Below are positions 4,982 through 63,020 of a DNA stretch of 64,000 nt, one piece after another (the first letter of the stretch is position 1; each line of letters starts with the position of its first letter). Under the pieces are notes generated by a model that was not told the DNA's origin, did not search any database, and saw only the letters and a program-made list of their open reading frames with translations. The stretch is from an uncultured virus (IMG/VR IMGVR_UViG_3300043313_000272) (Duplodnaviria; Heunggongvirae; Uroviricota; Caudoviricetes), in IMG/VR virus record IMGVR_UViG_3300043313_000272. One strand, written 5' to 3'. The position numbers and the translations under genes are program-made.

Positions 4982-5131
4982 CTAGATCGTCCAGCTGGAA
5001 GCCGGATGCTCTGCTGTTGAGCTATCACCGCGGGCGCCGACCACGTGCCCGTAATTTCACTGCCGGCTCTCGGACGAGGCAATACGGGCTAGCACGCCTC
5101 GTGATCCGAGCTTTGACCGGGATCGTACCGG

Positions 5132-5592: not shown

Positions 5593-5649
5593 CTCCTTCG
5601 CCAGGTGTTCTTACAAGATCATTTTCTCAGGTCGCCGCACCCGTGTCAA
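5593..5649 (-). promoter_or_regulatory. Sigma70-type promoter TTGACA-N17-GAAAAT plus CACCTGGCGAAGGAG leader motif
   Basis: -35 at 5644-5649, -10 at 5621-5626, motif 5593-5607. Confidence 0.75.
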
Positions 5650-8179: not shown

Positions 8180-8181
8180 CG

Positions 8182-10347: not shown

Positions 10348-10352
10348 CGGTT

Positions 10353-10404
10353 CTCCCTTTGCCAGGTGTTATTAAAAGCCTATCTCTTGACACACGGGTG
10401 TCAA
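10353..10404 (-). promoter_or_regulatory. Promoter TTGACA-N16-TAGGCT plus CACCTGGCAAAGGGAG leader motif
   Basis: -35 10399-10404, -10 10377-10382; inverted repeat TCTTGACAC-N4-GTGTCAAGA over the -35. Confidence 0.8.
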
Positions 10405-11414
10405 GAGTCTGTCGTATACGCGTCCTGCTCGGGCCATTCATCCCAGGTCCGACCGTCCAGGTTGCGGCCCGCCGCTTTCTTCCCGACCCGCCCAGACACG
10501 GTGCCGTCGCCCCAGTAGTCCACCCGTTCTGGCCAGGCCCCGACGTGATCGGGGCCGGACACCGGCTTCCACTCACCCCATTGCTTGAAGTGGAAGGCGA
10601 CACCCCACTTGACGCACTGGTCACGGATCGAGCGCGCCCAGTCGGGGTGCATCGGGCGAGCCTCATGTCCGGACTCGCCGCCCACGATCACCCAGTCGAT
10701 GCCGAGCTGGTCGTCGACGTCCCACTCGATCCCTGTCCCGTAGTCGACCAGGTTCATGACGCCCTCGCGGGTGACCGCGGGACCGGGCTCCTCGACGTTG
10801 CCGAACAGGTCGATCGGACCTAGCAGCGGCTCAGCCGAGACGAACTTGACCGCCGCCGGCGTCTGCACGAGCGCGGGGATGCGCAGCTCAGCCCACTTCT
10901 GCGACTCGGCGGACACGCCCAACCACACGTTCGGCACCAGCACCCTCTTGCCGTCAGGGGTCAGCGGGAAGTTGCCGTGGTCCTTCACGCGCAGCTTCTC
11001 CCACTCGCCAAGCACGAGGCACGCGAACTCCTCACTGTTCAGCAGGTACCGCATCACGCCCGCCCGTTTGGTGAGGATCTGGAACTGGTGTTGCTTGGCC
11101 GCCGCCATCACCGCGAAGACCCGTGCCAGGTACTCCTTCGGGATGTCCGAGTGGAACAGGTCGGACATCGAGTTGACGAAGATCCGGCGCGGCCTGGTCC
11201 AGCTCAGCGGCTGATCGAGGCGGGCGGGCAGCAGCCTCACCTCCCCGGTGAACCTGCCGTCGACGGCCAGCCCCTTGTAGGCGGGCACCTCCTTCAACCG
11301 CCCAGACGCCAGCGAGGCAGCGTAGCAGTGGTCACAGCCCGGTGAGACGTGCGTGCACCCGGTCACCGGATTCCACGTGGCGTCGGTCCAGTCGATCTTG
11401 CTCTTGTCACCCAT
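10401..11414 (-). CDS. Phage Gp37Gp68/DUF5131 family protein (radical-SAM-like)
   Basis: SKIDWTDATWNPVTGCTHVSPGCDHCYA, IFVNSMSDLFH, NVWLGVS, SAEPLLG, DWVIVGGESG, FHFKQWG. Confidence 0.92.
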   Translation of the reverse strand: MGDKSKIDWTDATWNPVTGCTHVSPGCDHCYAASLASGRLKEVPAYKGLAVDGRFTGEVRLLPARLDQPLSWTRPRRIFVNSMSDLFHSDIPKEYLARVFAVMAAAKQHQFQILTKRAGVMRYLLNSEEFACLVLGEWEKLRVKDHGNFPLTPDGKRVLVPNVWLGVSAESQKWAELRIPALVQTPAAVKFVSAEPLLGPIDLFGNVEEPGPAVTREGVMNLVDYGTGIEWDVDDQLGIDWVIVGGESGHEARPMHPDWARSIRDQCVKWGVAFHFKQWGEWKPVSGPDHVGAWPERVDYWGDGTVSGRVGKKAAGRNLDGRTWDEWPEQDAYTTDS

Positions 11415-12866: not shown

Positions 12867-12923
12867 CTCCTTTGCCAGGTGTTTTACTGTGTCAAACCTA
12901 TCTGACAGACCCCTCCGTGTCAA
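12867..12923 (-). promoter_or_regulatory. Promoter TTGACA-N17-TAGGTT plus CACCTGGCAAAGGAG leader motif
   Basis: -35 12918-12923, -10 12895-12900, motif 12867-12881. Confidence 0.85.
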
Positions 12924-14201: not shown

Positions 14202-14277
14202 CTCCTTTGCCAGGTGACCCGCGTTGTGCGGGCTTACTTTCAAGATCAAACCTACGGGAGCACCCTCAGTTTGTCAA
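14202..14277 (-). promoter_or_regulatory. Promoter TTGACA-N17-TAGGTT plus CACCTGGCAAAGGAG leader motif
   Basis: -35 14272-14277, -10 14249-14254, motif 14202-14216. Confidence 0.85.
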
Positions 14278-14728: not shown

Positions 14729-15624
14729 TCCGGCTCACCGCGATATGCCGCCTTGGCCTTCGCGTCGTCGAGCTTCTTGCGCTGGTCTTTCCGCCACATC
14801 AGCAGCTGGCCCTTGTTCAGCTCCTGCCACTTGGGCTGGTTGTAGTCCGCGTCCCACATCTGCGGCATCAGTTTGATCTTGTCGAGGAACCATTGCTGGC
14901 CCTCGCGGATCTCCTCGTCGGTCAGCCCGAGCACCTGCTGGGCCTCGAAATAGATCTGCGCCAGCTCCTGGATGATGTCCTGCTTCGTCTCCTTGGCTTC
15001 CGGCTCGGCCTCGGCGGCTGCCTCCATGCGCTGGGCTCGGAACACCTCAGGGTTCTGCATCTCCTCAGCTGAGGCGACACCGGAGCCGGGCAGCACACCG
15101 AAGCCCCACGCGGCGATCGCGCGCCCGTTGGCGGCAGTCTCAGCCTTCTCCCACGAGTTGCTGCCGATGCGGGAGCTGGTGCCGGAGCGTGTCCCAATGA
15201 GCATCTCTTCGCCGGTGTTGTCGATGCCGTACACCTTGCAGTTGACCCGGTACACCACGTTCTCGGCGTAGACCAGGATGCCCGGCATTCCGGTCGGGGT
15301 GTTCGGCTCGGGCTCCAACTCGACGCGCGACCAGGTGTTGATCCCTTGGGCCTTCTCCAGCATCTTGATGCGTCCGGCGACCGACATGTACAGCCGGACC
15401 ACCCACCGGAAGTCCTTCGGCTGGTCGGGCTCGGCGACGTTGGTGCGTTGCCCGATCGCGTGCACGTACTCAATGAAGTCGATCGTGTCCACACCCCAGA
15501 CTTTTGGCAGCTCCTTCAGGAGCCGCTCCACCTCGTCCACCTGCGGGTTGACCTTGTTGTTCATTCGGCTGATCCATTCCCACCGAGAGAACTGCTCGGG
15601 GGTCGTCACTGCTGGATCTGTCAC
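14725..15624 (-). CDS. Putative Rad52/Sak-like single-strand annealing protein
   Basis: YMSVAGRI...EKAETAANGRAIAAWGFG...ASAEEM pattern; RecB-like exonuclease and SSB in the same arm. Confidence 0.6.
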   Translation of the reverse strand: MTDPAVTTPEQFSRWEWISRMNNKVNPQVDEVERLLKELPKVWGVDTIDFIEYVHAIGQRTNVAEPDQPKDFRWVVRLYMSVAGRIKMLEKAQGINTWSRVELEPEPNTPTGMPGILVYAENVVYRVNCKVYGIDNTGEEMLIGTRSGTSSRIGSNSWEKAETAANGRAIAAWGFGVLPGSGVASAEEMQNPEVFRAQRMEAAAEAEPEAKETKQDIIQELAQIYFEAQQVLGLTDEEIREGQQWFLDKIKLMPQMWDADYNQPKWQELNKGQLLMWRKDQRKKLDDAKAKAAYRGEPE

Positions 15625-15821
15625 TTCTTCCTTCCTCCTCCCACTTCGTAACCCTTCGCTATTAGTTGTTGCCTGATCTGTCTGACCCGCTCTCGGGAGA
15701 TCCCAAGCTCGCGGGCGATCTGCGCCTGCGAGACGTGCCGCGCCAGACTGTTCGCGACCTCCCGCTCTTGCGCGGTGAGACCTGAGTCGTCTCGGTCGAG
15801 CGTGTAGCCCGGGTGTGTCAT
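15621..15821 (-). CDS. Small HTH DNA-binding protein (sigma70 region 4/LuxR-like)
   Basis: LTAQEREV...SQAQIARELGISRERVRQI. Confidence 0.8.
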   Translation of the reverse strand: MTHPGYTLDRDDSGLTAQEREVANSLARHVSQAQIARELGISRERVRQIRQQLIAKGYEVGGGRKK

Positions 15822-17108
15822 GTCCGCCTCCGGAACCGTTCGATGTTGCGCGAGATGCGCGCTGAGTCTGAGGCTGACATAACCGGGTGCCCGAAGCACG
15901 CCGGACACTGCTCGGGTGTCGCAGCCGGACCCACCTCGTAGAACGGGTCCTCTATCTCGCCGGCGCCGCCGCACAGCGGGCACAGCGCTTCGCCGGCAGT
16001 GCAGTCAGTGCACACCGGGATCCTTCTCCTCACGTTCGCGGCGGAGCTTCACGGTGAACACCTCGGCCATCTTGTGGGCGGTGTCCTCCTGCATGCGTCC
16101 GGGCGCTACCTCGGCCTGGAAGATGTCGGAGCTGCCCGGGTAGTTCGACGATTCAAGGTGCGCGAAGTACACCACCCAGACCTTCCCGACGTACGCGGAC
16201 GGCTGGATCATCAGCCATTCCTCGGTGACCGTGCCCTTCCCGGCGCACTCGATCGCGCGCCCGCGAGCTTCGGCGAGCGACATTTGGCTGGCGATGATCA
16301 TGTGATCTCACCCCTCGCCAGGTCGTCCATGGCTCGGGCGATCTTGAGCATGCCCTGATCGGCAGGCAGGTCCAGCCCGTTCCGGCGGTTGCGGAAGGTG
16401 TTTGCGAGGTCGTTCCACCCGTTGCGCTCAAGGATGGAGACCCCCCAGTTGCGGAGCCCGTCGTCGGTAATAGTCCCCCGGTTTTCGACGGCCTCCCGCA
16501 TCATCGTGGCCACCATATCGGCGTTCGTACCGGGCATCATTCCTCCCAGTCGATCTGCACGGAGCCGTCTTCGTCTAGGAAGCAGAAGGCGACCGGCTGG
16601 TTCTCGGCCTCCCACATGGCGTCGGTGATCTCGCCGTATTCGTCGTCGGGGTAGACGTCGACCGTCCAGTAACCCTTTCGGATGTCACCCGCCACGTTGA
16701 GAGTGGTCGACTTGATGATCCGGGGCAGCTTCTGCTGCATCCACCGCTCAGCCTCTCCGGCCCTCGCGAACTCGCGGCTGGCGAACGTACGCCGGTAGGG
16801 CTCGTCCTCGTCACCGCCCCAAATGTGGGCCTGGAATCTCGGCTGCTCCAGATGCTTCTGGTGCGCCACGTAGTCCTTGGTCTCGGCCATCACGCCACCA
16901 CGCATACCCAGCTGAACGACATGATGAGCCAGCGGGCATCCTCGGGGACGCGGCAGGCCGCCCACCTCTCTTCGAGGGTCATCGCGAGCGTCATGAGCCC
17001 ACGGCTGACCAGCGCCTTGTGCATCGCCCAGACCGCTTTGGGGGCGTCGTAGTCCGTCTCGTACTGCGTGATGATCCGTTGGGCGGCTCGCGCCAGAATC
17101 TCGTCCAT
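15818..17108 (-). other. Five small hypothetical ORFs (17108-16890, 16890-16537, ~16540-16298, 16301-16005, ~16033-15818)
   Basis: Coupled ORFs behind the promoter at 17172. Confidence 0.55.
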
Positions 17109-17113
17109 TTCAA

Positions 17114-17172
17114 CTCCTTTGCCAGGTGTCTCTTTCAAGATCAAACCTACGGGAGTTGCCAACTCTTGTCAA
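17114..17172 (-). promoter_or_regulatory. Promoter TTGACA-N17-TAGGTT plus CACCTGGCAAAGGAG leader motif
   Basis: -35 17167-17172, -10 17144-17149; 24-bp block CTTTCAAGATCAAACCTACGGGAG identical to 14237-14260. Confidence 0.85.
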
Positions 17173-19993: not shown

Positions 19994-21032
19994 TGTAGGG
20001 ACCTCCTGGTGTTGAGCTGGCCACCCACGCCGGTGTCGGATCGGTCGGAGCCGGATCCTGATCGTTGGCGGTTGGGAGACCCGAAGCGTCCTGAGCATCG
20101 TCGACGTCAGCGGCGGCAGTGACACCGCACATCGTTCCGGCTGCCGTGCCGTCGTTGTAGACCCTGATCGTGTGGGTCGCGTGCACCGGAACGTCGCCGT
20201 CGGTGGCGTAGTCGGTCAGGGTGTAGTCCTCGCCATTCGTGCCCACGTCGGAGCCCGACATAACTGAGGAACGCTCACAATCGGACACAACCGGGCCGAC
20301 GGACTTCGTGTCTTTCCACTCGATGGTGCCGTTGGCAAGATCGTCGGACAGGTCGATGCGCAGCGGGTTGAGCCCGTCGGCGTCCTTCCAGTTGGAGCAC
20401 TCGCCTGGAGGCAGTTCGTTGTTGTAGTCCAGGTCGGTGCCGGCGTCCCCGCCGTCCATCTTGAACACATCGAACGTCTTCGTGCTGGACGCGTCGTTGC
20501 AGGTCCGCACCCGATCGCTCAAGTTCGCGCCGCACACTGAGGCATTCCGGATGAGTACCTGGACCTGTCCGCCAGAAACAGCGTTGGCCAAGGTCTCGGT
20601 AGGCGGCAGCGCGTTCTCATTGCTGATCGTCGCCGTGTCCTGGCAGGGCATGTCGTACGACGCCTGCGTGTCGTCGATGCCGTCGTTGTCCTTACCGATC
20701 TCCGCAGAGCCGTTGGGAACGAAGTTGACACCGTCGTCGGTCAGGTCGATCCGCACGTTCGCCGGGTCGTTGACGTTTCCGGTGCAGTCGCCAGGCAGCA
20801 ACTCGTTCGAGTAGGTGCCGTACGAGGATCCGGGCAACCGGTCGACGTCGATGTTCTTACCGTCGGTGCTACCACCGTTGGTATCTGACGAGTCGATCGA
20901 GTTGCAAATCTTGATGGTGGCCGGGAATGCCGCCTGCGCGGGCGTGGCCACCATGAGGGCGGAGGCGGTTCCAGTGATCGCCACCGCGGCGGTACAGGCA
21001 AGCCATCGTTTGGCTCGCGTGGGAAACTTCAT
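19980..21032 (-). CDS. Secreted acidic protein with two tandem Cys-containing domains
   Basis: Signal peptide ending AQA; repeated C-N...DV...Y.NEL.PG.C...RIDL.DD unit. Confidence 0.7.
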   Translation of the reverse strand: MKFPTRAKRWLACTAAVAITGTASALMVATPAQAAFPATIKICNSIDSSDTNGGSTDGKNIDVDRLPGSSYGTYSNELLPGDCTGNVNDPANVRIDLTDDGVNFVPNGSAEIGKDNDGIDDTQASYDMPCQDTATISNENALPPTETLANAVSGGQVQVLIRNASVCGANLSDRVRTCNDASSTKTFDVFKMDGGDAGTDLDYNNELPPGECSNWKDADGLNPLRIDLSDDLANGTIEWKDTKSVGPVVSDCERSSVMSGSDVGTNGEDYTLTDYATDGDVPVHATHTIRVYNDGTAAGTMCGVTAAADVDDAQDASGLPTANDQDPAPTDPTPAWVASSTPGGPYSDEN

Positions 21033-21155
21033 TTACCAGCTCCCTTCTCGGGCTGATAGTGGGGTTCGCACTCGCACCGTATCGCCTGAGAGGGAGCTGT
21101 GTGGCGCATCCGGCAATCCCACGTCATACGTGTCGACGCGCCCGCTACAACCAGA

Positions 21156-21191
21156 AGACTCCCACGGGCCTCAGGCCAGCGGTGGGAGTCT
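21156..21191 (-). terminator. Terminator-like hairpin
   Basis: AGACTCCCAC/GTGGGAGTCT stem followed by TCTGGTTGT on the minus strand. Confidence 0.5.
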
Positions 21192-21316
21192 CAAGGGGTC
21201 AAACACGGAGTGTCTACACACTACCAACCATCACTGACAGGGACCTGAAGACATAGCTGTCCTTCCCCTCCCCAAAACCCAACGAAGATCAACATCTAAC
21301 CAGGGCAGGCTTACGC

Positions 21317-21416
21317 GCAGCCAGTCCCGGGAGAATCTCCGCCTGACCTTGCCGTCTAGGTCGGCTGCTCGCGCGTGGCAGCTCGATCAGATTGCCCGGG
21401 AGTGCGGGCCGGCTAC
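21317..21416. ncRNA. Candidate structured RNA (three-way junction)
   Basis: Nested stems GTAGCCGG/CTGGCTGC, TCCCGGG/CCCGGGA and AATCT/AGATT enclosing hairpins GCTGC/GCAGC and GACCT/AGGTC in ORF-free DNA. Confidence 0.4.
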
Positions 21417-21455
21417 TCCTACGTCCTGAGTTCAGGTGAGGACGCCAAGGAACAC

Positions 21456-21935
21456 CTATGCGATGCCCTGCATGAGCAGGCTGTAATCGAATTTGGCTTT
21501 GAGGGCGTCCAGGATGTCGACCTGTTCGCCCAGGTAGCCGAGTAGTCGGTTGTCATAGACCCGCGCCCATCGGGGGATGGTGATCTCGCGGTGCACAAAC
21601 TGCTGGCCGCGCTCGGTGACTTGCCACCATCCGGCGCGTCCTCCGTCGTCTCGACGCTCTTTCGCTTCCTGGATCAGACCCCAGTGCCGCATGATCGCCT
21701 CGTCGCGCCCGTGGGTGCTGATGGACGCCAGGAACTCAGGCATGTAGAACCACTCCAGCCCGTACCGGTGGTTGGCGAGGATCAGCTTCCGTGCCATGCC
21801 GGCGTTCACTCGGCGCTTCTGCACCCACGCGTGCTGACCGCAGCATGGGCAGCGGGCGCCTTTGTCGACGCGGTCGCGTAGCCATTGCTTGGCCTCTTCG
21901 AGCGTGTCGAAGTGGGGGGCGGTCGGCTCAGACAC
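21456..21935 (-). CDS. Hypothetical protein (Zn ribbon plus winged-helix-like)
   Basis: CPCCGQ...HWGLI...GWWQVTERG; GGAGG SD. Confidence 0.7.
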   Translation of the reverse strand: MSEPTAPHFDTLEEAKQWLRDRVDKGARCPCCGQHAWVQKRRVNAGMARKLILANHRYGLEWFYMPEFLASISTHGRDEAIMRHWGLIQEAKERRDDGGRAGWWQVTERGQQFVHREITIPRWARVYDNRLLGYLGEQVDILDALKAKFDYSLLMQGIA

Positions 21936-21954
21936 AGGCGCCTCCAGGCGTGGA

Positions 21955-22247
21955 AGCGGCCCCGGTCCGCAATTGCATGACCGGGGCCGCTAGGACCACC
22001 TGGCAAAGTTGCCCTGGCCGATAATCGGCCTCCTCGACGCGGCTCGATGGAGTTGGACGCGTCGGTGTTACAAGGGTATCGACTGAAGTCGGAATGATCA
22101 AGATCTGCTCCCATCGAGCTGTCCGTTGCCAGGTGGACTTTATTGCGCCGTGGACTCGCCCGCTAGGGCGTTGCAGGATCGTTGCCAGGTGGCCCGGTGT
22201 TGGCTACCCCGAATTACAATCTGCACGCCCCGAGGCGAGTCGTCTAC
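21955..22247 (-). ncRNA. Candidate ~300-nt regulatory RNA carrying sense and antisense copies of the leader motif
   Basis: Own promoter (22253-22280), multiple long stems, 13-bp terminal hairpin 21955-21991, CCACCTGGCAAC at 22181-22192 and 22125-22136, antisense CTTTGCCAGGTGG at 21996-22008. Confidence 0.6.
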
Positions 22248-22252
22248 GAATC

Positions 22253-22280
22253 ATGATAAGGGACCTACCGCCGGTGTCAA
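22253..22280 (-). promoter_or_regulatory. Promoter TTGACA-N16-TATCAT
   Basis: Immediately after the lysis-cassette terminator; no credible ORF for ~310 nt downstream. Confidence 0.65.
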
Positions 22281-22286
22281 GGGTTA

Positions 22287-22324
22287 GAGAAAGCGGCCCG
22301 GCAGTGACGTGCGGGCCGCTTCTC
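22287..22324 (-). terminator. Intrinsic terminator after holin
   Basis: AAGCGGCCCG/CGGGCCGCTT stem followed by TCTCT. Confidence 0.7.
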
Positions 22325-22333
22325 CGCGAGACG

Positions 22334-22807
22334 CTACCAGCCTTGAGCTGGGTTGACGCGCTGAGCGTTCGGCGCTTCGGGTTGTGCCGGATCCGCCGGC
22401 GGTGTCTTGACGACCACGTGGGAGGTTGCCACGCCGGACAGGATGCCGCCGATGAACACGAGCGCGGCAGCCGCCGGGGTCACCCACTCGGGCGTCGCGC
22501 CGGGAATGACCTGGTACAGCAGCGGGAGGATCGCGAGCAACGCGTTGATGACGCCGGAGATCCAGTTCAGGATCTTCCGGGCCTTCGGTGGCAGCGCCGT
22601 CGGATCGATCGCGTCGCCGTTGATGTTCGTGGCGGCGGTGACTCCTGCGACGCCGGCGAGGACGCCGAGGATCTGCACCGCCCCGTCGATCCAGCCGGGC
22701 GTATCGCCGGTCGATGCTTGCACGATCACGGCGTAGGTGCCAAGCGCAACCACGGCGAGCGTGTTGGCCCAGTAGATGGCGGCGCGGACGCCAGCCGGAA
22801 TGGTCAT
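22334..22807 (-). CDS. Holin (about 4 TM, internally duplicated)
   Basis: Two similar halves (RAAIYW.../RKILNW...; TPGWI/TPEWV); directly downstream of endolysin. Confidence 0.75.
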   Translation of the reverse strand: MTIPAGVRAAIYWANTLAVVALGTYAVIVQASTGDTPGWIDGAVQILGVLAGVAGVTAATNINGDAIDPTALPPKARKILNWISGVINALLAILPLLYQVIPGATPEWVTPAAAALVFIGGILSGVATSHVVVKTPPADPAQPEAPNAQRVNPAQGW

Positions 22808-22817
22808 GGTGCCTTCC

Positions 22818-24182
22818 TCAGGGTTTCTTCGTGGACAGGTAGTCCATCGAGTAGTAGGTGCCGGACGTGGTGACAGCGTTCCAACGGCCCCACCGGTAGA
22901 CCTGCTTGGCGGCTTTGATCTCGTAGCCGCGCGCCCGGTGCGTCTTCGCTACCCGGTCGACGTCGCAGCCGGTGAGGCTGGAGCCGGCCTGCACGTTGAC
23001 GTAGAAGCTGGCCGCGCCGGTCTTGATGTTCACCGGGTTGTACGGCGAGGTCGCCCAGCGTTCGAGCTTCGGTGTGCGCGGGCCGGGGAATCGGAGGTTG
23101 CTGACCAGCCCGTCACCGTCCGGGTTGCCGCCCAACCATTCCTGGTATTCGCCGTGCTGGGTGCGGGCGAGCTGGGCGACGTCGCCGAGGCTCTCAGCTG
23201 ACACGTTGTGGCCGTGCCGATCGGAGTCCCACCCGTCGTCGTAGTTGCCGTACTCGTAGCCGCGGATGAAGAACAGCTGGCCGGAGCGCATGAAGAACCC
23301 CTGGACCTTGACGACGTCGTCGAGCGACTTCCAGGCCGTGCCTTCCTTGACCTTGATGTCCTCGACACCGAGGCCCTTGTGGCTGCCGGCGGACAGGGCG
23401 CCGTCGGAGAGGCCGCCTTGGACGATCTCGATCGGACCCCACCAGGACTTCACCTCGCGCTCGATCAGCGTCAGGATCACGTAGTCGCGGGCCGTCACAT
23501 AGCGGGGGGTTTTGCCGTCGTCCCGCCACCGCAGGTAGTAGCAGGTGTATTCGGTGTTGTACTTGACCGTCTTGGGGGCGTCGGAGAGCTTCGCCGGCGC
23601 TGTGGCGATCGCCGCGCGGAGGAACAGCGTCACCCTGGCCAGGTTCCGGCTGGAGCCTGGCGTCCCGGACAGGCAGTGCTCCATCGCCTTCCACCAGTCC
23701 TGGTTGGCGAGCGCGGTCCGGAAGTTCGGCCACTCGTAGCCGTCGGAGGCTTGCCGATCGGTGAACCGTGGGCCGTAGTTCCACGCCATGTCCCAGTAGG
23801 CGAGCTGGGCGTCAGCCGGCCAATCCTCGAGATCCGGGTACAGGCCCGCCATGATGCCGGCGAACCCGTTGGCACGGTCGATCGTCAGCTTGTCGATGGT
23901 CCCGTCGTCGATGCGGAGCGTCGCGTACTTCTCGAACGCTGCTCCGCCCAGATGACGGATGTCCTGCTTGGAGTTGATCATGCGCCATTCGGCTTCGATC
24001 TCATCCGGCGTCGCTGACCGATCAAATAACTTCCAGGGCAGTTTCTGAGCTGCCTGCACGGAGTCGATCAGGTACCCGACTGCCGTGGTGACTAGGCCCT
24101 TTGAGTCGAGGTACATCCAGGAGCAACGGCCTTCGAACTTCTCGACGAAGTCGGGGAATGCCGCACGTACGGAGTCGCGCAT
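22818..24182 (-). CDS. Endolysin: lysozyme-like N-terminal domain plus M15-like peptidase domain
   Basis: FEGRCSWMYLDSKGLVTTAVGYL (T4/GH24-like E-x8-D-x5-T); QGG...SAGSHKGLGVED...HGH; start MRDSV overlaps upstream stop. Confidence 0.8.
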   Translation of the reverse strand: MRDSVRAAFPDFVEKFEGRCSWMYLDSKGLVTTAVGYLIDSVQAAQKLPWKLFDRSATPDEIEAEWRMINSKQDIRHLGGAAFEKYATLRIDDGTIDKLTIDRANGFAGIMAGLYPDLEDWPADAQLAYWDMAWNYGPRFTDRQASDGYEWPNFRTALANQDWWKAMEHCLSGTPGSSRNLARVTLFLRAAIATAPAKLSDAPKTVKYNTEYTCYYLRWRDDGKTPRYVTARDYVILTLIEREVKSWWGPIEIVQGGLSDGALSAGSHKGLGVEDIKVKEGTAWKSLDDVVKVQGFFMRSGQLFFIRGYEYGNYDDGWDSDRHGHNVSAESLGDVAQLARTQHGEYQEWLGGNPDGDGLVSNLRFPGPRTPKLERWATSPYNPVNIKTGAASFYVNVQAGSSLTGCDVDRVAKTHRARGYEIKAAKQVYRWGRWNAVTTSGTYYSMDYLSTKKP

Positions 24183-28800: not shown

Positions 28801-29341
28801 TCCAGTGGGCGTGAAGCGCTCCGATCCAGCCGTCGACGACGGGCGGCGGGCCGAGCAGCGGCGGGATGCCGTCGCCTTGCACCTCCGCGACCTGGGTGAG
28901 CGCCTCGGCGGCGAAGATGTCTGCGATGTACAGCTCGCCGCCGGGCCGGGTTTCGACCGCCACCGACTCGCCGAGGCCGGGCTGACGCATCCCGTCGGCC
29001 AGCACATCCTTCATGGAGTGCGGCACGACGATCGGGACCGCGTCGGCCTCGTCGACGTCGAACTCGACCATGGCGACCTTCACCGGGGCCGCCGGGTAGA
29101 TCTCGATCCGGTCGTCGACGTCGAGGGCGGCCACCAGCGGCGTGGCGAGGGTGATTACTGAGGTGTCGAAGTTGACCGCCGTGTAGCCGTACACCTCGCC
29201 GTCGATCGACAGCTGGCCGCCCGTCTCGTCGAAGGTCGGCGCGTACAGCACCTGGATCGAGGTGGCGCCGACGATCGCCGCGGCTGCCGCATTGTCGCCG
29301 GCGTTGGTGGTCGAGACGTCTGCGATGGTTCCGTAGATCAC
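25874..29341 (-). CDS. Minor tail / receptor-binding protein
   Basis: Fn3-like segment, beta-rich lectin-like middle, Gly-rich C-terminal domain (VQAGGGAGGG...GAGCVIVTEIY). Confidence 0.8.
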   Translation of the reverse strand: MIYGTIADVSTTNAGDNAAAAAIVGATSIQVLYAPTFDETGGQLSIDGEVYGYTAVNFDTSVITLATPLVAALDVDDRIEIYPAAPVKVAMVEFDVDEADAVPIVVPHSMKDVLADGMRQPGLGESVAVETRPGGELYIADIFAAEALTQVAEVQGDGIPPLLGPPPVVDGWIGALHAHWSPVENPDPVTYKVHLSTVNDFAPDATTLVATTGASSVTIKNTANDLPLAYDTTYYVKIVASDLDGDSPASPQGSAQMRPATNPDIAATFVYAGSVSADQITGGTIRGDLIYGGKLATGLSGARVEHDESGSTYFNPAGEPVIDLSTNSESTFKGSADINTLTVSGQAEIRGTGNKLTQGSKLELSSGAVSQGNPSTVPTVTQDWAVTPFTKAGDGTFNAANITSICWVSGLWVCGYRDGGSYRVYRFNPDGTYNSLGADAITSATALQTTQIVANGLCYSITSDNKIIRHKAMAGNYTHVWTDDFGASISGARWATIAGAVWDAGSGNGRAKLTDDSSIRTGFNNNMKDSFVSAKITRQSGTVGQDIFMNLREDVADAHLAEIKLEGTTLTFRSYEATTDIVEFTTSITYNATTHAYWKISEVDAAGGGGDLHFYTSADGVNWTERASWDHDFSIGEMDTAKLSIVGQDDGTPGLVFYVDEVRHGLNNEEKSFSFTPTNTDGDPFTIGNDGTSVLLAEHNNASSNDRLRVRTVNPVSMTVTDVETADDSVWAGPLVGILKGSFDFGASRVVTKQAASTSDWRVATSSAGGTRQTSQEFAASGILKGIGWDGSNFWGLSTNGSLYKHTTDTAAGAWLAGYTWYDSNATGGTHETMISPLNSFTRKRRARCTITSPSIPPGGGTDDPNGIRPYAGTSSGAMKLQSTPAAGVISVTYDVLGTGGAAPPGSNNFGAGGATPAQIVNPSNSLIISGDGTITAVSLVMTPRPGSIVRTVFTAGTTYNKPAAAKQFLIEVQAGGGAGGGAAATSAQGSGGGGGQGGGYACSLLAAAALGASETITVGAGGTGVSAGTGNTGGTSSFGSLVSATGGLGGQATGAGTTVGLQEGGFGTQTFTGQQTAVGQAGAVGGRLGGSDSFGGLGGSSRLGGGGRGRAGNNTGDVGGVYGGGGGGSTTGGTNAARAGAVGGAGCVIVTEIY

Positions 29342-30483
29342 CGCTTCCTCCTGATCCTGGCTGCGTTCGCGGAGATCTTTTTGATCGTGCCGTTGGTCTG
29401 GGCGCCCGCCTTGAGCGGGATCGCGAACTGGTCCTGCATCAGGTTCATCGACACGTCCGGGACGGACAGCAGGAACATGTCCCCGACCTCCAGGTGCGGG
29501 ATCACAAAGGAGTCGATGTCGAACCCGACGTTGGCGTTCTCCACCGTCTTCAGCAGGTCCTCAGCCGCCTGGTCGACCTCTTTCTGGGTGTCGTACGCGT
29601 CGTCCTCAGCCTCCTCCACCAGGTAGGTCTTCGTGCCGTTCCGGCCCAGCGCGGTCGGGGTCGAGCCGCCAGACGTCAAATACCTCTTGGCTGTCAGCTG
29701 CTTTTTGCCGGTCGGGGTGGCGCCCTTCACATAGGCGGTGTTGCGGATCTCATCGTGGTTGTAATCCAGCTTGGGCACGGACGTCAGAGTCGGCTCCGTG
29801 AACGCCCACACGGGCTTCGTGGGGCGATCGCGCATCCTGAGGACGCCGCGACCGTCGTACCAGAGCTGCCGCAGTTTCTTGTCGCCGGCGATGCCCTGGA
29901 GGAACTCCCACGGCTCGGTGTCGATCTTCACCGACTTCTCTTTGCTGAGCGTCCGGGACGTCGACGGAATGTCGAACCTGGTTTCCCCCATCAGCTTGGC
30001 GAAGCTGATGATGACCGAGCTGGCCCGCTCGCCCTTCTTGTAGGTCTTCGTCGTCCAGGCCAGGCGCGGCTTCATCAGCAGCTTCTCCTTGCCCTGGCAT
30101 TCCACGGAGACGATCGCGTCATCGCGCTTCGCCTTGGTCACCGGGCCACAGAAGATCGGGACGTCAACCCACTTGGGCAGCCACTCGGAGTAAACGGAGT
30201 AAACGATTCGGATCATCCGGTCGGCGTACAGCGCACCGTCGGCGGGGGAGGAGGTGTCGAAGCCGATCGCCTGGTCCGGGTCCAGCAGGGTCATGGAGGC
30301 CGAGGAGGTGACAGCCTCGTTGTAGTCGTAGTTCACCTGCCCGTCTTGCAGCATGGTGGAGACGTCGGCCAGATAGGCGTGGTTCAGATCCAGCACCTGG
30401 AGGGTGATCTTCAGCTGGTACCCGTTGTAGAGGCTGAATTCGAACAGCGCCTGCTCCGCCGCCGTCAGCCCCAAACTGATCAT
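29338..30483 (-). CDS. Minor tail (baseplate hub/Tal-like) protein
   Basis: WYDGRGVLRM, IRNTAYVKG, IPHLEVGD; second large gene after tape measure; start MISLG. Confidence 0.75.
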   Translation of the reverse strand: MISLGLTAAEQALFEFSLYNGYQLKITLQVLDLNHAYLADVSTMLQDGQVNYDYNEAVTSSASMTLLDPDQAIGFDTSSPADGALYADRMIRIVYSVYSEWLPKWVDVPIFCGPVTKAKRDDAIVSVECQGKEKLLMKPRLAWTTKTYKKGERASSVIISFAKLMGETRFDIPSTSRTLSKEKSVKIDTEPWEFLQGIAGDKKLRQLWYDGRGVLRMRDRPTKPVWAFTEPTLTSVPKLDYNHDEIRNTAYVKGATPTGKKQLTAKRYLTSGGSTPTALGRNGTKTYLVEEAEDDAYDTQKEVDQAAEDLLKTVENANVGFDIDSFVIPHLEVGDMFLLSVPDVSMNLMQDQFAIPLKAGAQTNGTIKKISANAARIRRKR

Positions 30484-53219: not shown

Positions 53220-53474
53220 GATTCTCCTTGCCAGGTGGGGCTTACCTGTCAAGGGTAGCGGATCGTATACGTTTCGTCTACGTTTTTTGGCCGCGTTTCC
53301 AAACGTGGCCACAGTCGGGGCAGCGCCACACGTTCGTCTGCTCCTCGGTCGGCTCGTGCGTGTCCTCGGTGACCTCAATGGCCCGAGTGAACAGCTTCTT
53401 GAGGTGCCGGTATTGCCGCTTGACCGTGCGATCGCGCAGCGACACCTTGCAGCTCGGGCACTGCTGGGGGAGCT

Positions 53475-54093: not shown

Positions 54094-56081
54094 TCACGCT
54101 CCGTTGCCGCTAGGTCGTCCAGCTCCCTCAGCTCTATCTCGGTCATCGTCGACCTCCCCGACCGGACCCCACTTCTCGGGGTGAATCCGTCTGTCAGATC
54201 TAGTCAACCTTGCGACGGCCTCTGCCGGCGTGATCTCGCCGCTTCTCAGTAGCGCGCGTGTCCGATCCATGCTCGCTCGGGCGACGTCATCGGCGCGAGT
54301 GGCGAACCGCATAGCCTGCTCTGACGCCTCAGCTGGGGAGAGCAGGTCAGCCACTTTCGGCGCCCACGGTGGCAGCGGCCACACGGCTCCCCCTAACCCT
54401 TGTCATGGTGACGCACCTCCACCTTGTTCATGGCGACGGGCAGCGCCTCGATCTGGAATCCGCCGAAGGTGGCCGCGTCGAGGCTGAGCGCGAACCCGTT
54501 GTCCAGGTCCTCCAGCATCCACTGGTTTCCGGACCCGTCGCTGATCAGCACATACTTCGGGTCGCCCTGCGGTGTGTCCACCGGGATCGCGATGATCATG
54601 AGGGTTCTCCCAGTTCGGCTGCCCACTTGTCGCGGCGCTCGATCGAGTGGGCCATGATCTCGTTCATCCAGTCGGGGGCGACGCCGTCTTCCCAACGCCA
54701 CTTCAGCCAGTACAGCTCCTTGTTGACGGTGGAGAGGCGGCTGCCCTTCAGCACCTGATGGGCGAACACGCTGAGGTCAAGCTCCCAGACACCGCCGCGA
54801 TGGTCGACCTCCACCTCGCCGTCGACGGTCACGCGCGTCCAGGTGACCTTCGCCAGGTACGGCTGAAAGGGCGGGCGCGATCGATCCTGGATTATCTCCA
54901 CGTGGCCGACGTCGTACTCCAGCAGGATGCTGTCGGTGACCTTCCTGCTCGGGTAGACCTGCGGGCCTTTCACTTCCGCCCCCGGTTGGCCTTCCGGGAG
55001 GCTCGCGCCTGCTTGGTCTTGGCCCGGTTCGCCTTCGCCTTCCGATGCCGCGGCGGCGGCTGGAGCGGCTCGACTTCGTAGTTGCCGGCTATCGGCTTGA
55101 TGAGGCTCATCCCGTCGAGGACGTTTCGCCAATCGATTGTGGCCATGCTTGTTCTCCTTCTTTGCCAGGTGTGTTGTGTGGGCGGCTGACCGCTTCCCTG
55201 AGACGGATCACTCGGGATCGTCTGACAGCCAGCCGCCCTTTCCTCCCCTGTGCGACGCCGTTATGGCGACGACAGAAGCTCCAGATACCCTCGGTCGTGC
55301 ATCCAGTGGTAGATCTCGTTCCAATCGCCCGAGTAGATCACCTCGTCGTTGTCGTCCCAGATGTCGAGCTTCCAGACCGCCGGGTCGGCTTGGATGATCG
55401 TGAACCGTTTCCTCATGCCGGCCAGCTCCAGCATCTCGGTGTCGAAGTAGGCGACCTCCACGCCGGCGGGCAGGTTGTCACGAAGCACTTGCAACGCGTC
55501 GCCGGCCATTTCCCACCTCCTCGTACACCTTGACCGTCATGTTCATATGCCCAAGCAGCTCGGACAATAACAGATCCGGGTTCTCCAGGTCGGGCTCGTC
55601 GAGCGCCTCCTGCAGCCGGCTGGCGGTCCGCTTCCAGGTGTCTATGTTGCAGTTCAGCTCAACCACGGGTTGGCCGTTGGTGCTCATGACGCCTCCTCAA
55701 CCGAGAGGACCTGCACCTCGTAGGCGGGCACGTCTGCGTCGGCTGCGTGGTGCAGCTTGGCCGCGCGCCGGGCTGCCGGCACATGATCCTTCTCGATCTC
55801 GGTGGTGACCTTCGGGCCCTCCAGATCCTTGGTGGCCCATTGGGTGGTGACCAGGAACTTCATGCAGGCACCCCCATCGGGGTGACCTCGACGACAACCA
55901 CGTTGTCCGCGAAGTGCGAGCGGACCTCGTTGAAGCCGAAGCGGGCGGCTGCGTCGGACACCTTGACGTTGATGTCCAGCACCGCGCCGTCGACTAACAC
56001 GCCGTCGGTGCTGTCGCCCTGCAACAGCGACACCTCAGTGCCCCAAGCCTTACGGACCATCACTACGGTGAAGTCGGACAT
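54094..56081 (-). other. Cluster of about eight small hypothetical ORFs
   Basis: Coupled ORFs including 56081-55860, 55687-55478, 55509-55261, 55146-~54970, 54384-54094; leader motif at 55161-55171. Confidence 0.5.
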
Positions 56082-56087
56082 TTTGAT

Positions 56088-56149
56088 CTCCCTTGCCAGG
56101 TGGATTTTCGATCTAGGACAAACCTATGGGACCACCCCGGTGTTGTCAA
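56088..56149 (-). promoter_or_regulatory. Promoter TTGACA-N17-TAGGTT plus CACCTGGCAAGGGAG leader motif
   Basis: -35 56144-56149, -10 56121-56126. Confidence 0.85.
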
Positions 56150-59992: not shown

Positions 59993-60053
59993 CTCCTTTG
60001 CCAGGTGGATTTGATCTTGGTCTAAACCTAAGCGACCGAACCCCGGTTGTCAA
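59993..60053 (-). promoter_or_regulatory. Promoter TTGACA-N17-TAGGTT plus CACCTGGCAAAGGAG leader motif
   Basis: -35 60048-60053, -10 60025-60030; 13-bp inverted repeat TAAGCGACCGAAC/GTTCGGTCGCTTA flanks the -35. Confidence 0.85.
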
Positions 60054-60929: not shown

Positions 60930-61490
60930 GCAGTGAATCCTTTCGTTGATGTTGCCTTGCTGACGTTACAGAACGGGTGGGTCGTTGACCTCCTTTGCCA
61001 GGTGATGTTGCGCGGGTAAACCTAGCAGCGCGGTTCCCGCTTGGCTTCAGGCTCCGCGGCTCGCGGCGTGTCGAACATGCCCTCCAGCAGGCCGCGGGTG
61101 TGCTTCGGCATGCAGTCGTGTACGAAGCGGGCGCCCTTCACCTCGCCGGGCATGGTGACCTTCACCTTGTCGTCGGTGTCGTCGAGGTGCCAGCCGCCGG
61201 TGTCCAGCTCAACCGCCAGATCGGCTGTGACGTCTCGCTTGCAGGCCGGGCATTTGGCGATCGGCTCAGCTCGGGTCACTCGTACCAATGTCACGTCTTC
61301 ACCTCCTCTCCCAAGTCCATGCTCATCACAACCCCGGTGTTGCTGACGGTGAAGCGGAGCCGCCGACACTCACCGAGCAGTTGCAGCGGCGACACCTCGA
61401 CGGTCAGCTCGCCGGCAGGGACCTTCTGCATCAGGTAGCGCAGCTGCTCCGCATCCCGTTCGCTGAGCACATACTTCACTCCCGCACCTC

Positions 61491-62555: not shown

Positions 62556-62957
62556 TAGATCTCCTTTGCCAGGTGTTTGTTTCATGAATCATGAACCTTG
62601 AAACTAAGTTACCGAGATTCCACCCCCGGGTCGTCGAATTCGGAGCGGATGCCGTATCCGCTCCGATACCGAGGCCACAGTGACATCGGGACAGGTCGGC
62701 GGTGCTCGTCCAGGATCAGCCAGCTGTACCGCCTCTTCACGACCACACCGTTGGCCTGCGGCTCGTCGACGTCCACGGTCCGGCGCTCCAGCTCCTCCTC
62801 GATTGTGTCCAGGCTGGCGTCGTCCGGAACGTCGAACTCGAACGTGACCTGGATCCTCACGAGTTCTTCCTGACCTCGCGGGCTACGAAGATGAGCATCG
62901 GCAGCACCACGAACAGCAAACCGCCAACGACTACGAACCATTGCCAAGCCATTGTTT

Positions 62958-63020
62958 CCCCTTGCCAGGTGGAGTTTCTGTTTACGAGATCAAACCTACA
63001 GCACCTACCCCGCTTGTCAA
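62958..63020 (-). promoter_or_regulatory. Promoter TTGACA-N16-TAGGTT plus CACCTGGCAAGGGG leader motif
   Basis: -35 63015-63020, -10 62993-62998. Confidence 0.8.

What the first reader, a model, noticed from the sequence alone, without database searches (positions are those of the whole stretch)
21955..22280. Candidate phage sRNA holding both sense and antisense copies of a genome-wide SD-overlapping leader motif
Seen: between the holin terminator and the next gene lie a TTGACA-N16-TATCAT promoter, ~300 nt without a credible ORF, several long stems (GACTCGCC/GGCGAGTC, GGGCGT-GCAG/CTGC-ACGCCC, GCTCGATGG/CCATCGAGC) and a closing 13-bp hairpin. The transcript would carry CCACCUGGCAAC twice in loop positions (one as GUCC-ACCUGGCAAC-GGAC) and, just 5' of the closing hairpin, CUUUGCCAGGUGG, the exact complement of the consensus CACCUGGCAAAG that abuts the Shine-Dalgarno of about 12 phage leaders. 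Known analogies: CsrB/RsmZ sponges display in loops the motif their protein binds at SD sites; antisense sRNAs use a seed to occlude SDs. Inference: one RNA could switch a whole early regulon off or on, with the internal sense copies either masking the seed or titrating a binding protein. I know of no described phage system with this layout.
Basis: partly seen in the sequence, partly recalled or inferred. Interest (0 to 1): 0.9.

Follow-up and report, generated by a model that had tools for sequence, protein, structure and literature searches.

The report
Phage leader-mimic and anti-leader RNA element
A soil actinophage carries a highly folded non-coding stretch holding both a copy and the exact complement of the short motif in front of about a dozen of its early genes; distant relatives share this layout, which gives a testable idea for how such unexplained "start-associated" motifs are controlled.

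Summary
All genes lie on the minus strand. Between a holin-like gene's terminator and the next gene lie a TTGACA-N16-TATCAT promoter, about 300 nt with no coding signature, and a very stable predicted fold (z -7.4). This stretch has two sense copies (CCACCTGGCAACG) and one exact antisense copy (CTTTGCCAGGTGG) of a motif. The motif occurs 13 times in sense and once in antisense across the window. Eleven copies (ten exact, one one-mismatch variant) abut a Shine-Dalgarno sequence and start codon.

Distant relatives have the same layout with their own motif version (GGCGAAAGG): Arthrobacter phages KellEzio, Kitkat and BeatusComedenti, and DanielleIgnace. In each, a sense copy and the single antisense copy form the arms of a long hairpin, followed by a GC hairpin and the next gene. 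G-U pairs favour the sense-strand RNA in the relatives. Soil metatranscriptome contigs cover the element.

The antisense "seed" is predicted to be masked by the internal sense copy. A trans-acting switch is therefore plausible but unproven. A cis-acting leader and DNA operators remain rivals.

The motif is of the SAS kind known from Cluster K mycobacteriophages, whose function is unknown. K1 phages also have one inverted SAS in a non-coding gap; Cluster EF phage AnnaSerena has none.

The parts
22334..22807 (-). Holin-like membrane protein gene (157 aa) directly after an endolysin-like gene
   Evidence: Translation. Four hydrophobic stretches by Kyte-Doolittle. No Pfam or PHROG hit. The upstream protein has relatives, one of which its source names a GH24 lysozyme.
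22286..22319 (-). Terminator-like hairpin GCGGCCCG-N11-CGGGCCGC followed by UUUCUCU
   Evidence: Read directly from the sequence.
22253..22280 (-). Sigma-70/SigA-type promoter TTGACA-N16-TATCAT. The predicted start of transcription is near 22247-22245.
   Evidence: 11 of 12 consensus positions and the only promoter-like hit in 20500-23500. Its -35 context CCCTTGACA resembles the CTCTTGACA of the early promoters.
22153..22241 (-). 5' domain: nested stems GACTCGCC/GGCGAGTC and GGGCGTGCAG/CTGCAACGCCC enclosing sense copy 1
   Evidence: MFE and centroid structures.
22180..22192 (-). Sense copy 1, CCACCTGGCAACG (leader motif without an SD)
   Evidence: Mean P(unpaired) 0.33.
22124..22136 (-). Sense copy 2, CCACCTGGCAACG, the 5' arm of the long-range helix (leader mimic)
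   Evidence: It pairs with 22008-21996 in the MFE; P(unpaired) 0.10.
21996..22008 (-). Anti-leader CTTTGCCAGGTGG. It is the exact complement of CCACCTGGCAAAG and the only antisense copy in the 64 kb.
   Evidence: P(unpaired) 0.12 in the full-length RNA.
21955..21991 (-). Closing GC-rich hairpin (13 bp plus an inner 3 bp), followed by UU only
21456..21935 (-). First gene after the element (159 aa, phrog_2693). It has SD GGAGG and a GTG start, and there is no room for a promoter of its own.
   Evidence: Relatives at 37-45% identity in Mycobacterium and Gordonia phages.
62962..62971 (-). Leader motif abutting an SD and ATG. Preceded by a CTCTTGACA -35 and a TAGGTT -10.
62566..62575 (-). Leader motif abutting an SD and GTG (gene for a GmrSD_C/Excalibur-domain protein). 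No TAGGTT upstream.
60995..61004 (-). Orphan leader motif with SD AAAGGAGG but no start codon nearby. The real ATG lies 66 nt downstream.
59998..60007 (-). Leader motif (exact 13-mer CCACCTGGCAAAG) abutting an SD and ATG, with a full promoter upstream
56093..56102 (-). Leader motif abutting an SD and ATG, with a full promoter upstream
55162..55171 (-). Leader motif abutting an SD and ATG, with no promoter consensus upstream
53228..53237 (-). Leader motif abutting an SD and GTG. It lies only 9 nt after a CCCTTGACA.
17119..17128 (-). Leader motif abutting an SD and ATG, with a full promoter upstream
14207..14216 (-). Leader motif abutting an SD and ATG (DUF932-like gene), with a full promoter upstream
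12872..12881 (-). Leader motif abutting an SD and ATG, with a full promoter upstream
10359..10368 (-). Leader motif abutting an SD and ATG, with a full promoter (TAGGCT -10) upstream
5598..5607 (-). Variant leader motif CACCTGGCGA abutting an SD and ATG

Best explanation
The 21955-22247 stretch is a conserved non-coding RNA element at the junction between the lysis/late block and the next early-type block of a KellEzio-like actinophage.

It is transcribed from its own SigA-type promoter. It folds into three parts:
1. A 5' stem domain that displays one leader-motif copy.
2. A central domain closed by an 11-bp helix. One arm is a leader mimic (the motif without an SD). The other is an anti-leader segment that is the exact complement of the start-associated leader motif, including the first SD-extension bases.
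3. A GC hairpin.

I think it most likely works at the RNA level on the motif-bearing mRNAs. Once freed from the internal mimic, the anti-leader can form 12-13 bp duplexes over the motif and the 5' edge of the SD of about 11 promoter-proximal genes, lowering or retiming their translation. It could be freed by processing of the long helix, as the P1 c4 and P4 CI RNAs are cut out of operon leaders. It could also be freed when something binds the mimic. The internal mimic keeps the seed masked until then.

Shown: the sequence anatomy, the statistics, the conservation of the layout with a co-varying motif, the strand-specific RNA stability in relatives, and presence in RNA libraries.

Inferred: a discrete RNA, unmasking, trans pairing, and the direction of the effect.
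For: 1. Motif statistics and strand bias: 13 sense copies and 1 antisense copy. The lone antisense copy lies in this gap. A 12-mer is expected about 0.004 times per strand of 64 kb from base composition (my arithmetic).

2. The motif is tied to the SD and start codon, not to the promoter. The distance from the -10 to the motif varies from 8 to 32 nt, while the motif always abuts the SD. Four of 12 leader sites lack the TAGGYT -10. In KellEzio some copies sit at internal gene starts, after a stop codon.

3. Relatives share about 17 syntenic genes at 27-61% identity and use the motif version GGCGAAAGG. Counts are 9 sense and 1 antisense in KellEzio, and 14 sense and 2 antisense in DanielleIgnace. 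One antisense copy in each lies in the equivalent junction, 5-10 nt before a 13-16 bp GC hairpin and shortly before the next gene.

4. In all 3 lineages the antisense copy pairs with an internal sense copy: P(unpaired) 0.12, 0.09 and 0.00. All 3 junctions fold far better than shuffles: z -7.4, -7.0 and -9.4.

5. The sense strand is more stable than its complement in DanielleIgnace (-176.5 vs -141.9 kcal/mol; 20 vs 7 G-U pairs) and in KellEzio (-153.6 vs -145.3). KellEzio and DanielleIgnace show both-sides-changed pairs flanking the motif core, at columns 9/114, 10/113 and 13/110.

6. The Cluster AT gap is 97-100% identical among 3 phages, while the flanking gene ends differ.

7. There is no coding signature in the window or in DanielleIgnace 'gp33' (GC3 0.58).

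8. In 3 of 4 soil RNA runs laid, a contig covers 22002-22237, 22019-22225 or 22049-22225. Two studies stop at 22225, 20 nt from the predicted start, with no loose end. This is a weak hint only.

9. Cluster K1 mycobacteriophages have one inverted SAS each (PMC3203893 passages). I located it in the large non-coding gaps of Anaya (59870) and Adephagia (58682). For Adephagia, RNA-seq places the start of late transcription in that same gap (PMC11373665 section 19).
Against: - The seed is predicted to be almost fully paired in the full-length RNA of all three lineages, so trans action needs an unshown unmasking step.
- The window's own element shows no strand asymmetry (-142.9 vs -143.4 kcal/mol).
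- The only close copies of this phage are identical here (L040), so there is no covariation within the lineage.
- The closing hairpins lack U-tracts, and the downstream gene has no promoter of its own. The RNA may therefore simply be that operon's 5' UTR.
- The RNA evidence comes from assembled contigs. These show no strand, no ends and no level, and DNA carry-over was not excluded.
- Co-variation of all copies would also be expected for sites of a DNA-binding protein.
- An antisense copy is not universal among SAS-bearing phages. AnnaSerena (Cluster EF) has 10 sense SAS and 0 antisense at up to 2 mismatches, and none of three 9-nt cores.
- Relative G001 shows neither a genome-wide motif nor an outstanding structured junction.
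- No Rfam family matches.
Confidence: 0.35

Rival explanations
1. Cis-acting 5' leader. The element is the long 5' UTR of the downstream operon (the genes from 21935 downwards). The mimic:anti-leader helix and the closing hairpin control read-through, processing or stability of that operon only. For example, they could work as a sensor: whatever binds the leader motif on mRNAs (ribosome or protein) also binds the mimic and remodels the leader. There would be no trans pairing with other mRNAs.
For: - The next gene starts 20 nt after the hairpin, with no room for a promoter. The holin terminator lies upstream of the element's promoter.
- The closing hairpins have no U-tract in the window or KellEzio.
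- The seed is masked in all three lineages.
- RNA contigs also cover the downstream gene, with upper ends at 21952 and 21940, just past the hairpin.
Against: - This does not explain why the 3' arm is an exact 13-nt complement of the trans leaders. That match is better than its match to the cis mimic, which pairs over 11 bp.
- DanielleIgnace has a second antisense copy in the loop of another hairpin, in a different gap (36061).
- The K1 inverted SAS sits in a predicted hairpin loop with no sense partner.
Confidence: 0.25
2. DNA operators. The motif is the asymmetric binding site of a phage DNA-binding protein, such as the conserved HTH protein at 15621-15983. Leader sites would block or tune transcription just downstream of the early promoters, as stoperators do. 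The junction would hold a three-site cluster (two direct, one inverted) that regulates its own promoter.
For: - All sites change together between lineages, as expected for a change in protein specificity.
- An HTH protein with Sigma70_r4/HTH matches is conserved in the window, KellEzio and DanielleIgnace.
- Eight of 12 leader sites lie 8-32 nt downstream of a -10 element.
- The window's junction folds equally well on both strands.
Against: - The motif's position is fixed relative to the SD and start codon, and variable relative to the promoter. Four of 12 sites lack the -10.
- In KellEzio and DanielleIgnace the motif core is the SD itself (GAAAGG).
- The junction inverted repeat extends well beyond the motif. 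It contains many G-U pairs that favour one RNA strand: 20 vs 7 in DanielleIgnace.
- No repressor or integrase was detected among 79 ORFs scanned with Pfam or 43 scanned with PHROGs.
Confidence: 0.2
3. Protein decoy. A phage or host RNA-binding protein recognises the motif on leaders, as the T4 RegA translational repressor does. The junction RNA would offer SD-less sense copies that titrate it, and the antisense arm would only set the fold.
For: Two identical SD-less sense copies (CCACCTGGCAACG) lie in the element. Copy 1 is partly unpaired, with P(unpaired) 0.33.
Against: - There are only two copies, and only one each in KellEzio and DanielleIgnace. The conserved one is paired.
- No RNA-binding domain was found in 79 ORFs.
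- This does not explain the exact antisense copy, or the loop-displayed antisense copies in DanielleIgnace and Cluster K1.
Confidence: 0.08
4. No functional link. The copies are decayed remnants of duplicated leader modules at a recombination-prone module boundary. Alternatively, the structured region serves something unrelated, such as a transcription-primed replication origin next to replication genes.
For: - The element sits at a mosaic boundary, and the flanking genes differ between Cluster AT phages.
- KellEzio's downstream gene is annotated as a replication initiation O-like protein.
Against: The same sense/antisense/hairpin order is kept in three lineages whose sequences no longer align, each with its lineage-specific motif version. 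The Cluster AT gap is better conserved than its flanks.
Confidence: 0.07

Closest known systems
[quoted passage not shown]
   Same: - An asymmetric motif of 10-13 nt in 10-19 copies, in one orientation, overlapping the SD a few nt before start codons.
- It is found on non-structural genes that follow intergenic gaps.
- It is often preceded by a SigA-like promoter module (the ESAS).
- K1 phages have one inverted copy that is not at a gene start.
   Different: - The sequence differs: CACCTGGCAAAGGAG here, against GGGATAGGAGCCC and GGGAAAGGACCCC.
- The phage lineage is different and apparently lytic.
- Here the inverted copy is paired with an internal sense copy next to a GC hairpin, in a junction conserved across three lineages.
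- The function of SAS is still described as unknown in the 2024 and 2025 papers. No anti-SAS RNA is proposed in the passages I read.
Phage P1/P7 c4 RNA and phage P4 CI RNA (recalled from general knowledge; no paper read here)
   Same: These are small antisense RNAs encoded in, and cut out of, the leader of an operon. Their complementary target sequences lie on phage transcripts and include a ribosome-binding site. Antisense and target co-vary between heteroimmune relatives.
   Different: - Those systems have one to a few targets on the same operon and serve immunity in temperate elements.
- Here there would be about 11 dispersed targets in an apparently lytic phage.
- Processing and trans action are not shown here.
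Stoperators of Cluster A mycobacteriophages (mentioned in PMC3203893; details recalled)
   Same: Many copies of a 13-bp asymmetric site in one orientation relative to transcription, in short intergenic regions.
   Different: - Stoperators are DNA sites of the immunity repressor and are not fixed to the SD.
- Here the motif contains or abuts the SD.
- No repressor was found here.
- The junction helix shows RNA-type G-U pairing in the relatives.
CsrB/RsmZ-type protein sponges
   Same: A non-coding RNA that repeats a motif found at the SD regions of target mRNAs.
   Different: - Sponges carry many (about 7-20) loop-exposed copies and no antisense copy.
- Here there are 1-2 sense copies, and the conserved one is base-paired.

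Membership tests
SAS/ESAS-type start-associated motif | Asymmetric motif of about 10-13 nt in roughly 10-19 copies per genome, far above chance | tested here: met
   There are 13 exact sense copies of the 10-mer. With up to 1 mismatch there are 17 matches against 4.16 expected.
SAS/ESAS-type start-associated motif | Overlaps or abuts the SD within a few nt of start codons | tested here: met
   Ten of the 11 exact copies outside the element, plus 1 variant, abut an SD and an ATG or GTG.
SAS/ESAS-type start-associated motif | Essentially one orientation, restricted to non-structural gene regions | tested here: met
   13 sense and 1 antisense. The leader sites lie at 5.6-17.1 kb and 53.2-63.0 kb, and none lies in the 23-51 kb virion block.
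SAS/ESAS-type start-associated motif | Sequence related to the Cluster K consensus GGGATAGGAGCCC | tested here: not met
   The consensus here is (A/C)CACCTGGCAAAGGAG. Only the SD core is shared (consensus from PMC3203893).
SAS/ESAS-type start-associated motif | Upstream promoter-containing module (ESAS) at a subset of sites | tested here: met
   Seven of 12 leader sites have CTCTTGACA, a 16-17 nt spacer and TAGGYT. One more has the -10 only. An ESAS-type inverted repeat was not examined.
Trans-acting antisense RNA (c4/CI-like) | Extended exact complementarity to the ribosome-binding regions of its targets | tested here: met
   A 13-nt exact complement. It can form 12-13 bp, counting one G-U, with each leader, as read from the sequences.
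Trans-acting antisense RNA (c4/CI-like) | A discrete, stable RNA species with defined ends | tested here: inconclusive
   RNA-library contigs cover 22002-22237 in 3 of 4 runs. Contigs give no strand, no ends and no level, and DNA was not excluded.
Trans-acting antisense RNA (c4/CI-like) | An accessible seed | tested here: not met
   P(unpaired) in the full-length predicted RNAs is 0.12, 0.09 and 0.00. Unmasking by processing is hypothetical.
Trans-acting antisense RNA (c4/CI-like) | An effect on target translation or transcription | not testable with these tools
   This needs reporters and mutants.
CsrB/RsmZ-type sponge | Many loop-exposed copies of the protein-binding motif | tested here: not met
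   There are two sense copies in the window and one each in KellEzio and DanielleIgnace. The conserved one is paired.
Stoperator-type DNA operator | Binding by a phage repressor, with function as a DNA site | not testable with these tools
   No repressor or integrase was found. A conserved HTH protein exists. The positional and G-U arguments lean against this reading.
Any Rfam family | A score at or above the family's gathering threshold | tested here: not met
   Only a tRNA was found in the window at gathering thresholds. In E-value mode the best hits were 16.8 bits (window) and 23.4 bits (KellEzio), far below gathering.

The most novel reading that the evidence does not exclude
Start-associated sequences are the target sites of phage-encoded 'anti-SAS' RNA. 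One RNA segment is carried in a structured leader or junction transcript. It is either masked by an internal SAS mimic or displayed in a hairpin loop. It pairs with the SD-overlapping motif of ten or more early mRNAs and retimes their translation as a regulon. This would explain the single inverted SAS of Cluster K1 mycobacteriophages, which lies in the gap where late transcription starts. It would also explain the junction elements of KellEzio-like Arthrobacter phages and of this soil phage.
Probability: 0.3. Interest if true: 0.85.

Novelty: new variant of a known kind. Interest (0 to 1): 0.7.

Why it matters
Start-associated sequences have been catalogued in actinophages since 2011. Papers from 2024 and 2025 still describe their role as unknown.

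This finding supplies a concrete candidate partner: a conserved non-coding element that carries the motif's complement. It also shows that the partner co-varies with the motif across distant lineages.

Three of the phages that carry it (KellEzio, Kitkat, DanielleIgnace) are cultured on harmless Arthrobacter strains. Adephagia already has RNA-seq data. The idea can therefore be tested directly.

If it is confirmed, it would be a phage RNA that controls a whole set of its own genes through a shared ribosome-site tag. If it is refuted, the element remains a well-defined structured leader of unknown role.

Tried and rejected
Close relatives:
- None in the phage collection (megablast of 21400-23400; blastn of the gap).
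- None in IMG/VR using the lysin-like, 159-aa or FtsK-like proteins.
- The 15-mer motif+SD gave 34 IMG/VR loci with one match each, consistent with chance. One of them was a fragment of this same phage.

Metagenome scan with lysin alignment A1: 80 loci kept of 146 relatives.
- Only L040 is this phage. It is identical across the element and so uninformative.
- None of the other loci carries more than one exact copy of the motif.

IMG/VR relatives found through the TerL-nuclease alignment:
- L127-L129 are fragments of the same phage.
- G001 (52 kb) has a local repeat, CTGCGGGAGGTG, 6 forward and 0 reverse. It shows no genome-wide motif by k-mer counts, although strand skew makes those counts weak. 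It has no outlier structured window in the 18 kb scanned (best -72.9 kcal/mol per 160 nt).
- G003 has GGCGAAAGG 4 times in gene orientation, but its contig does not reach the junction.

Other attempts that led nowhere:
- RNAduplex energies of the seed against all start regions were uninformative in this GC-rich genome. Background energies reached -39 kcal/mol.
- In the three-way RNAalifold run, MAFFT misaligned the window's 3' arm. Only the KellEzio/DanielleIgnace pairs are usable.
- An internal promoter that would give a short, unmasked sRNA: -10-like TAGGCT/TAGACT boxes lie between the arms in KellEzio and DanielleIgnace. There is no matching box in the window and no consistent -35, so I dropped the idea.
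- No whole genome is held for the window.

Metatranscriptome contigs: no RNA contig covered 22238-22371 in the four runs, and X14 had no contig on the element. By the tool's own caution, missing cover proves nothing.

AnnaSerena has no antisense SAS. Generality across all SAS phages is therefore rejected.

The ZoeJ paper (PMC6452893) is not held. It may contain relevant RNA-seq on SAS genes.

Literature searches listed no description of an anti-SAS RNA. I saw only listings, abstracts and the passages cited, and I did not open any supplements.
Full report
**What the window is.**
- The 64-kb window is 65% G+C, and every gene lies on the minus strand.
- PHROG and Pfam scans identify a tailed-phage genome. 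It has a small terminase and a large terminase split into an ATPase gene (234-989) and a nuclease gene (50438-51361). It also has portal, major capsid, major tail, tape measure and tail-fibre genes, and replication/recombination genes. No integrase or repressor was found among the 43 and 79 ORFs scanned.
- It has no close relative in the phage collection.
- The nearest named phages are Arthrobacter phages KellEzio, Kitkat and BeatusComedenti (Cluster AT) and DanielleIgnace. Portal identity is 37% and 32%. About 17 syntenic genes are shared at 27-61% identity, including the same split terminase.
- The same phage turns up, identical, as fragments in soil metagenomes and in IMG/VR.

**The observation.** Read on the minus strand, the order of features is:
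- A 157-aa membrane protein gene (holin-like, four hydrophobic stretches).
- Its terminator (22319-22286).
- TTGACA-N16-TATCAT (22280-22253). It matches 11 of 12 consensus positions and is the only promoter-like site in 20500-23500.
- About 300 nt in which no reading frame has the phage's coding signature. GC3 is 0.58-0.63, against 0.71-0.90 in 13 genes.
- A closing GC hairpin (21991-21955).
- Twenty nt later, the GTG of the next gene.

The predicted RNA folds at -147.9 kcal/mol, against -110.4 for shuffles (z -7.4).

The element carries CCACCTGGCAACG twice (22192-22180 and 22136-22124) and CTTTGCCAGGTGG once (22008-21996).

**The motif across the window.**
- CACCTGGCAA occurs 13 times in sense and once in antisense. 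The single antisense copy is the one in this element.
- Ten of the 11 exact sense copies outside the element, plus one variant, sit directly against an SD and a start codon.
- One copy (61004-60995) has an SD but no start codon nearby.

**The motif-bearing genes.**
- Seven of the 12 leader sites follow a full promoter: CTCTTGACA, a 16-17 nt spacer, then TAGGTT or TAGGCT. One more has only the -10. Four have neither -10 nor full promoter.
- The distance from the -10 to the motif varies from 8 to 32 nt, whereas the motif always abuts the SD.
- The motif is therefore tied to the start codon rather than to the promoter.
[quoted passage not shown] Their extended form (ESAS) contains a SigA-like promoter. 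Their role is still described as unknown (PMC3203893 passages; PMC7302621; PMC11373665; PMC12699233).
- The sequence here is different, so this is a new member of that kind and not the same family.

**The comparative result that matters most.**
- KellEzio and DanielleIgnace have their own version of the motif, (C)AC(C)GGCGAAAGG, again abutting or forming the SD. Counts are 9 sense and 1 antisense in KellEzio, and 14 sense and 2 antisense in DanielleIgnace.
- In both, one antisense copy lies in the equivalent junction, after the tail or membrane-protein genes and before the first gene of the next block.
- The order there is the same as in the window: a sense-like copy, then 70-130 nt, then the antisense copy, then 5-10 nt, then a 13-16 bp GC hairpin, then the next gene.
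- In all three lineages the antisense copy is predicted to pair with the internal sense copy: P(unpaired) 0.12, 0.09 and 0.00.
- All three junctions fold far better than shuffles: z -7.4, -7.0 and -9.4.
- The version of the motif differs between lineages (GGC-AAAG against GGCGAAAG, with or without CACCT). The leaders, the internal sense copy and the antisense copy all carry the same lineage-specific version.
- The Cluster AT gap is 97-100% identical among three phages whose flanking gene ends differ.
- DanielleIgnace's annotated 'gp33' over this region has no coding signature (GC3 0.58).

**RNA or DNA?**
- An inverted repeat that co-varies is expected both for an RNA helix and for sites of a DNA-binding protein.
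- Two points favour RNA in the relatives. First, the helix extends well beyond the motif. Second, it is rich in G-U pairs that exist only on the sense strand. DanielleIgnace gives -176.5 against -141.9 kcal/mol (20 against 7 G-U pairs), and KellEzio gives -153.6 against -145.3.
- KellEzio and DanielleIgnace also show pairs changed on both sides next to the motif core.
- The window's own element gives no such asymmetry (-142.9 against -143.4).
- In soil metatranscriptome assemblies, 3 of the 4 RNA runs laid hold a contig on the element (22002-22237, 22019-22225, 22049-22225). Two studies stop at 22225, about 20 nt from the start predicted by the promoter, with no loose end.
- These are contigs. 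They give no strand, no ends and no level, and DNA carry-over was not excluded. I count this as a weak hint only.

**How it probably works.**
- My best reading (0.35) is a self-masked anti-leader RNA. The 3' arm can form 12-13 bp with each motif-bearing leader, covering the motif and the first bases of the extended SD. That is better than its 11-bp match to the internal mimic.
- It would act after release from the mimic, for example by cleavage of the long helix. The P1 c4 and P4 CI RNAs are cut out of operon leaders in a similar way (recalled, not read here).
- The masking is a real objection to simple trans action, and I could not test unmasking.
- The closest rival (0.25) is that the element is only the 5' leader of the downstream operon. 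That operon has no promoter of its own, and the closing hairpin has no U-tract.
- The other rivals are a DNA-operator reading (0.20; a conserved HTH protein exists), a protein decoy (0.08) and no functional link (0.07).

**Wider pattern, for and against.**
- I located it in Anaya (59870, gap between gp96 and gp97) and in Adephagia (58682, gap between gp92 and gp93). Its core lies in the loop of a predicted hairpin.
- The Adephagia study places the start of late transcription between genes 92 and 93. Late RNA may therefore carry the anti-SAS. This is an inference, because the exact start is not given.
- DanielleIgnace has a second antisense copy in a hairpin loop in another gap.
- Against generality, AnnaSerena (Cluster EF) has 10 sense SAS and no antisense copy.
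- The IMG/VR relative G001 shows neither a genome-wide motif nor a comparable structured junction.
- No Rfam family matches the element.

**Verdict.**
The element is real, non-coding, conserved in layout, and linked to the motif.
- Whether it is a trans-acting switch is open.
- It is a new variant built from two known kinds: SAS motifs and leader-encoded phage antisense RNAs.
- Its value lies in making the SAS question experimentally approachable in cultured, harmless phage-host pairs.

Noticed in passing
window 234-989 and 50438-51361 (minus strand): The large terminase is split into an ATPase gene and a nuclease gene, as in KellEzio and DanielleIgnace. In those phages the two genes are 1-2 kb apart, with a RusA gene between them. 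Here the ATPase gene lies at the low-coordinate end of the window. At least 12.6 kb of motif-bearing early-type genes (51.4-64 kb) precede the RusA-like and nuclease genes. No long repeat shows the window wrapping round.
   Followed up: partly
window 60995-61004 (minus strand): An orphan leader motif with a strong SD (AAAGGAGG) but no ATG, GTG or TTG nearby. The gene's real ATG, with its own SD, lies 66 nt downstream.
   Followed up: partly
window 40900-42012: Tandem 60-nt (20-aa) repeats inside the 1088-aa protein gene at 40207-43473. There are up to 10 copies at 60-83% identity.
   Followed up: no
window 22121-22138 (plus strand): On the non-coding plus strand, the complement of sense copy 2 forms a terminator-like hairpin followed by TTTATTG. 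It could stop antisense transcription, or it could be chance.
   Followed up: no
window 61491-62585 (minus strand): One of the motif-led early genes encodes a protein with a GmrSD_C nuclease domain and an Excalibur calcium-binding domain.
   Followed up: no
window 3168-4490 and 10401-11414 (minus strand): A phage DAM-like plus GNAT-like two-domain protein, and a DUF5131 protein. Together they suggest a DNA-modification function.
   Followed up: no
L120 (DanielleIgnace MT889387) 29116-29349: The annotated gene 33 (77 aa, hypothetical protein) lies over the structured junction. Its GC3 is 0.58, against 0.67-0.88 for six other annotated DanielleIgnace genes. It is probably not a gene.
   Followed up: yes
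L120 (DanielleIgnace) 36026-36219: A second antisense copy of the leader motif (CCTTTCGCC at 36061) sits in the roughly 30-nt loop of a terminator-like hairpin after gene 51.
   Followed up: partly
L036 (KellEzio) 5658-11238 and L120/L121 (DanielleIgnace): Each relative has its own family of repeated early promoters. KellEzio has CCAACCCTTGACGG...TAGNCT followed by a short GGGG/CCCC hairpin at the start of the leader. DanielleIgnace has ACTATTGACAA 8-9 times, all in sense.
   Followed up: no
window 4960-5031 (minus strand): A tRNA-Gly(TCC) gene.
   Followed up: no
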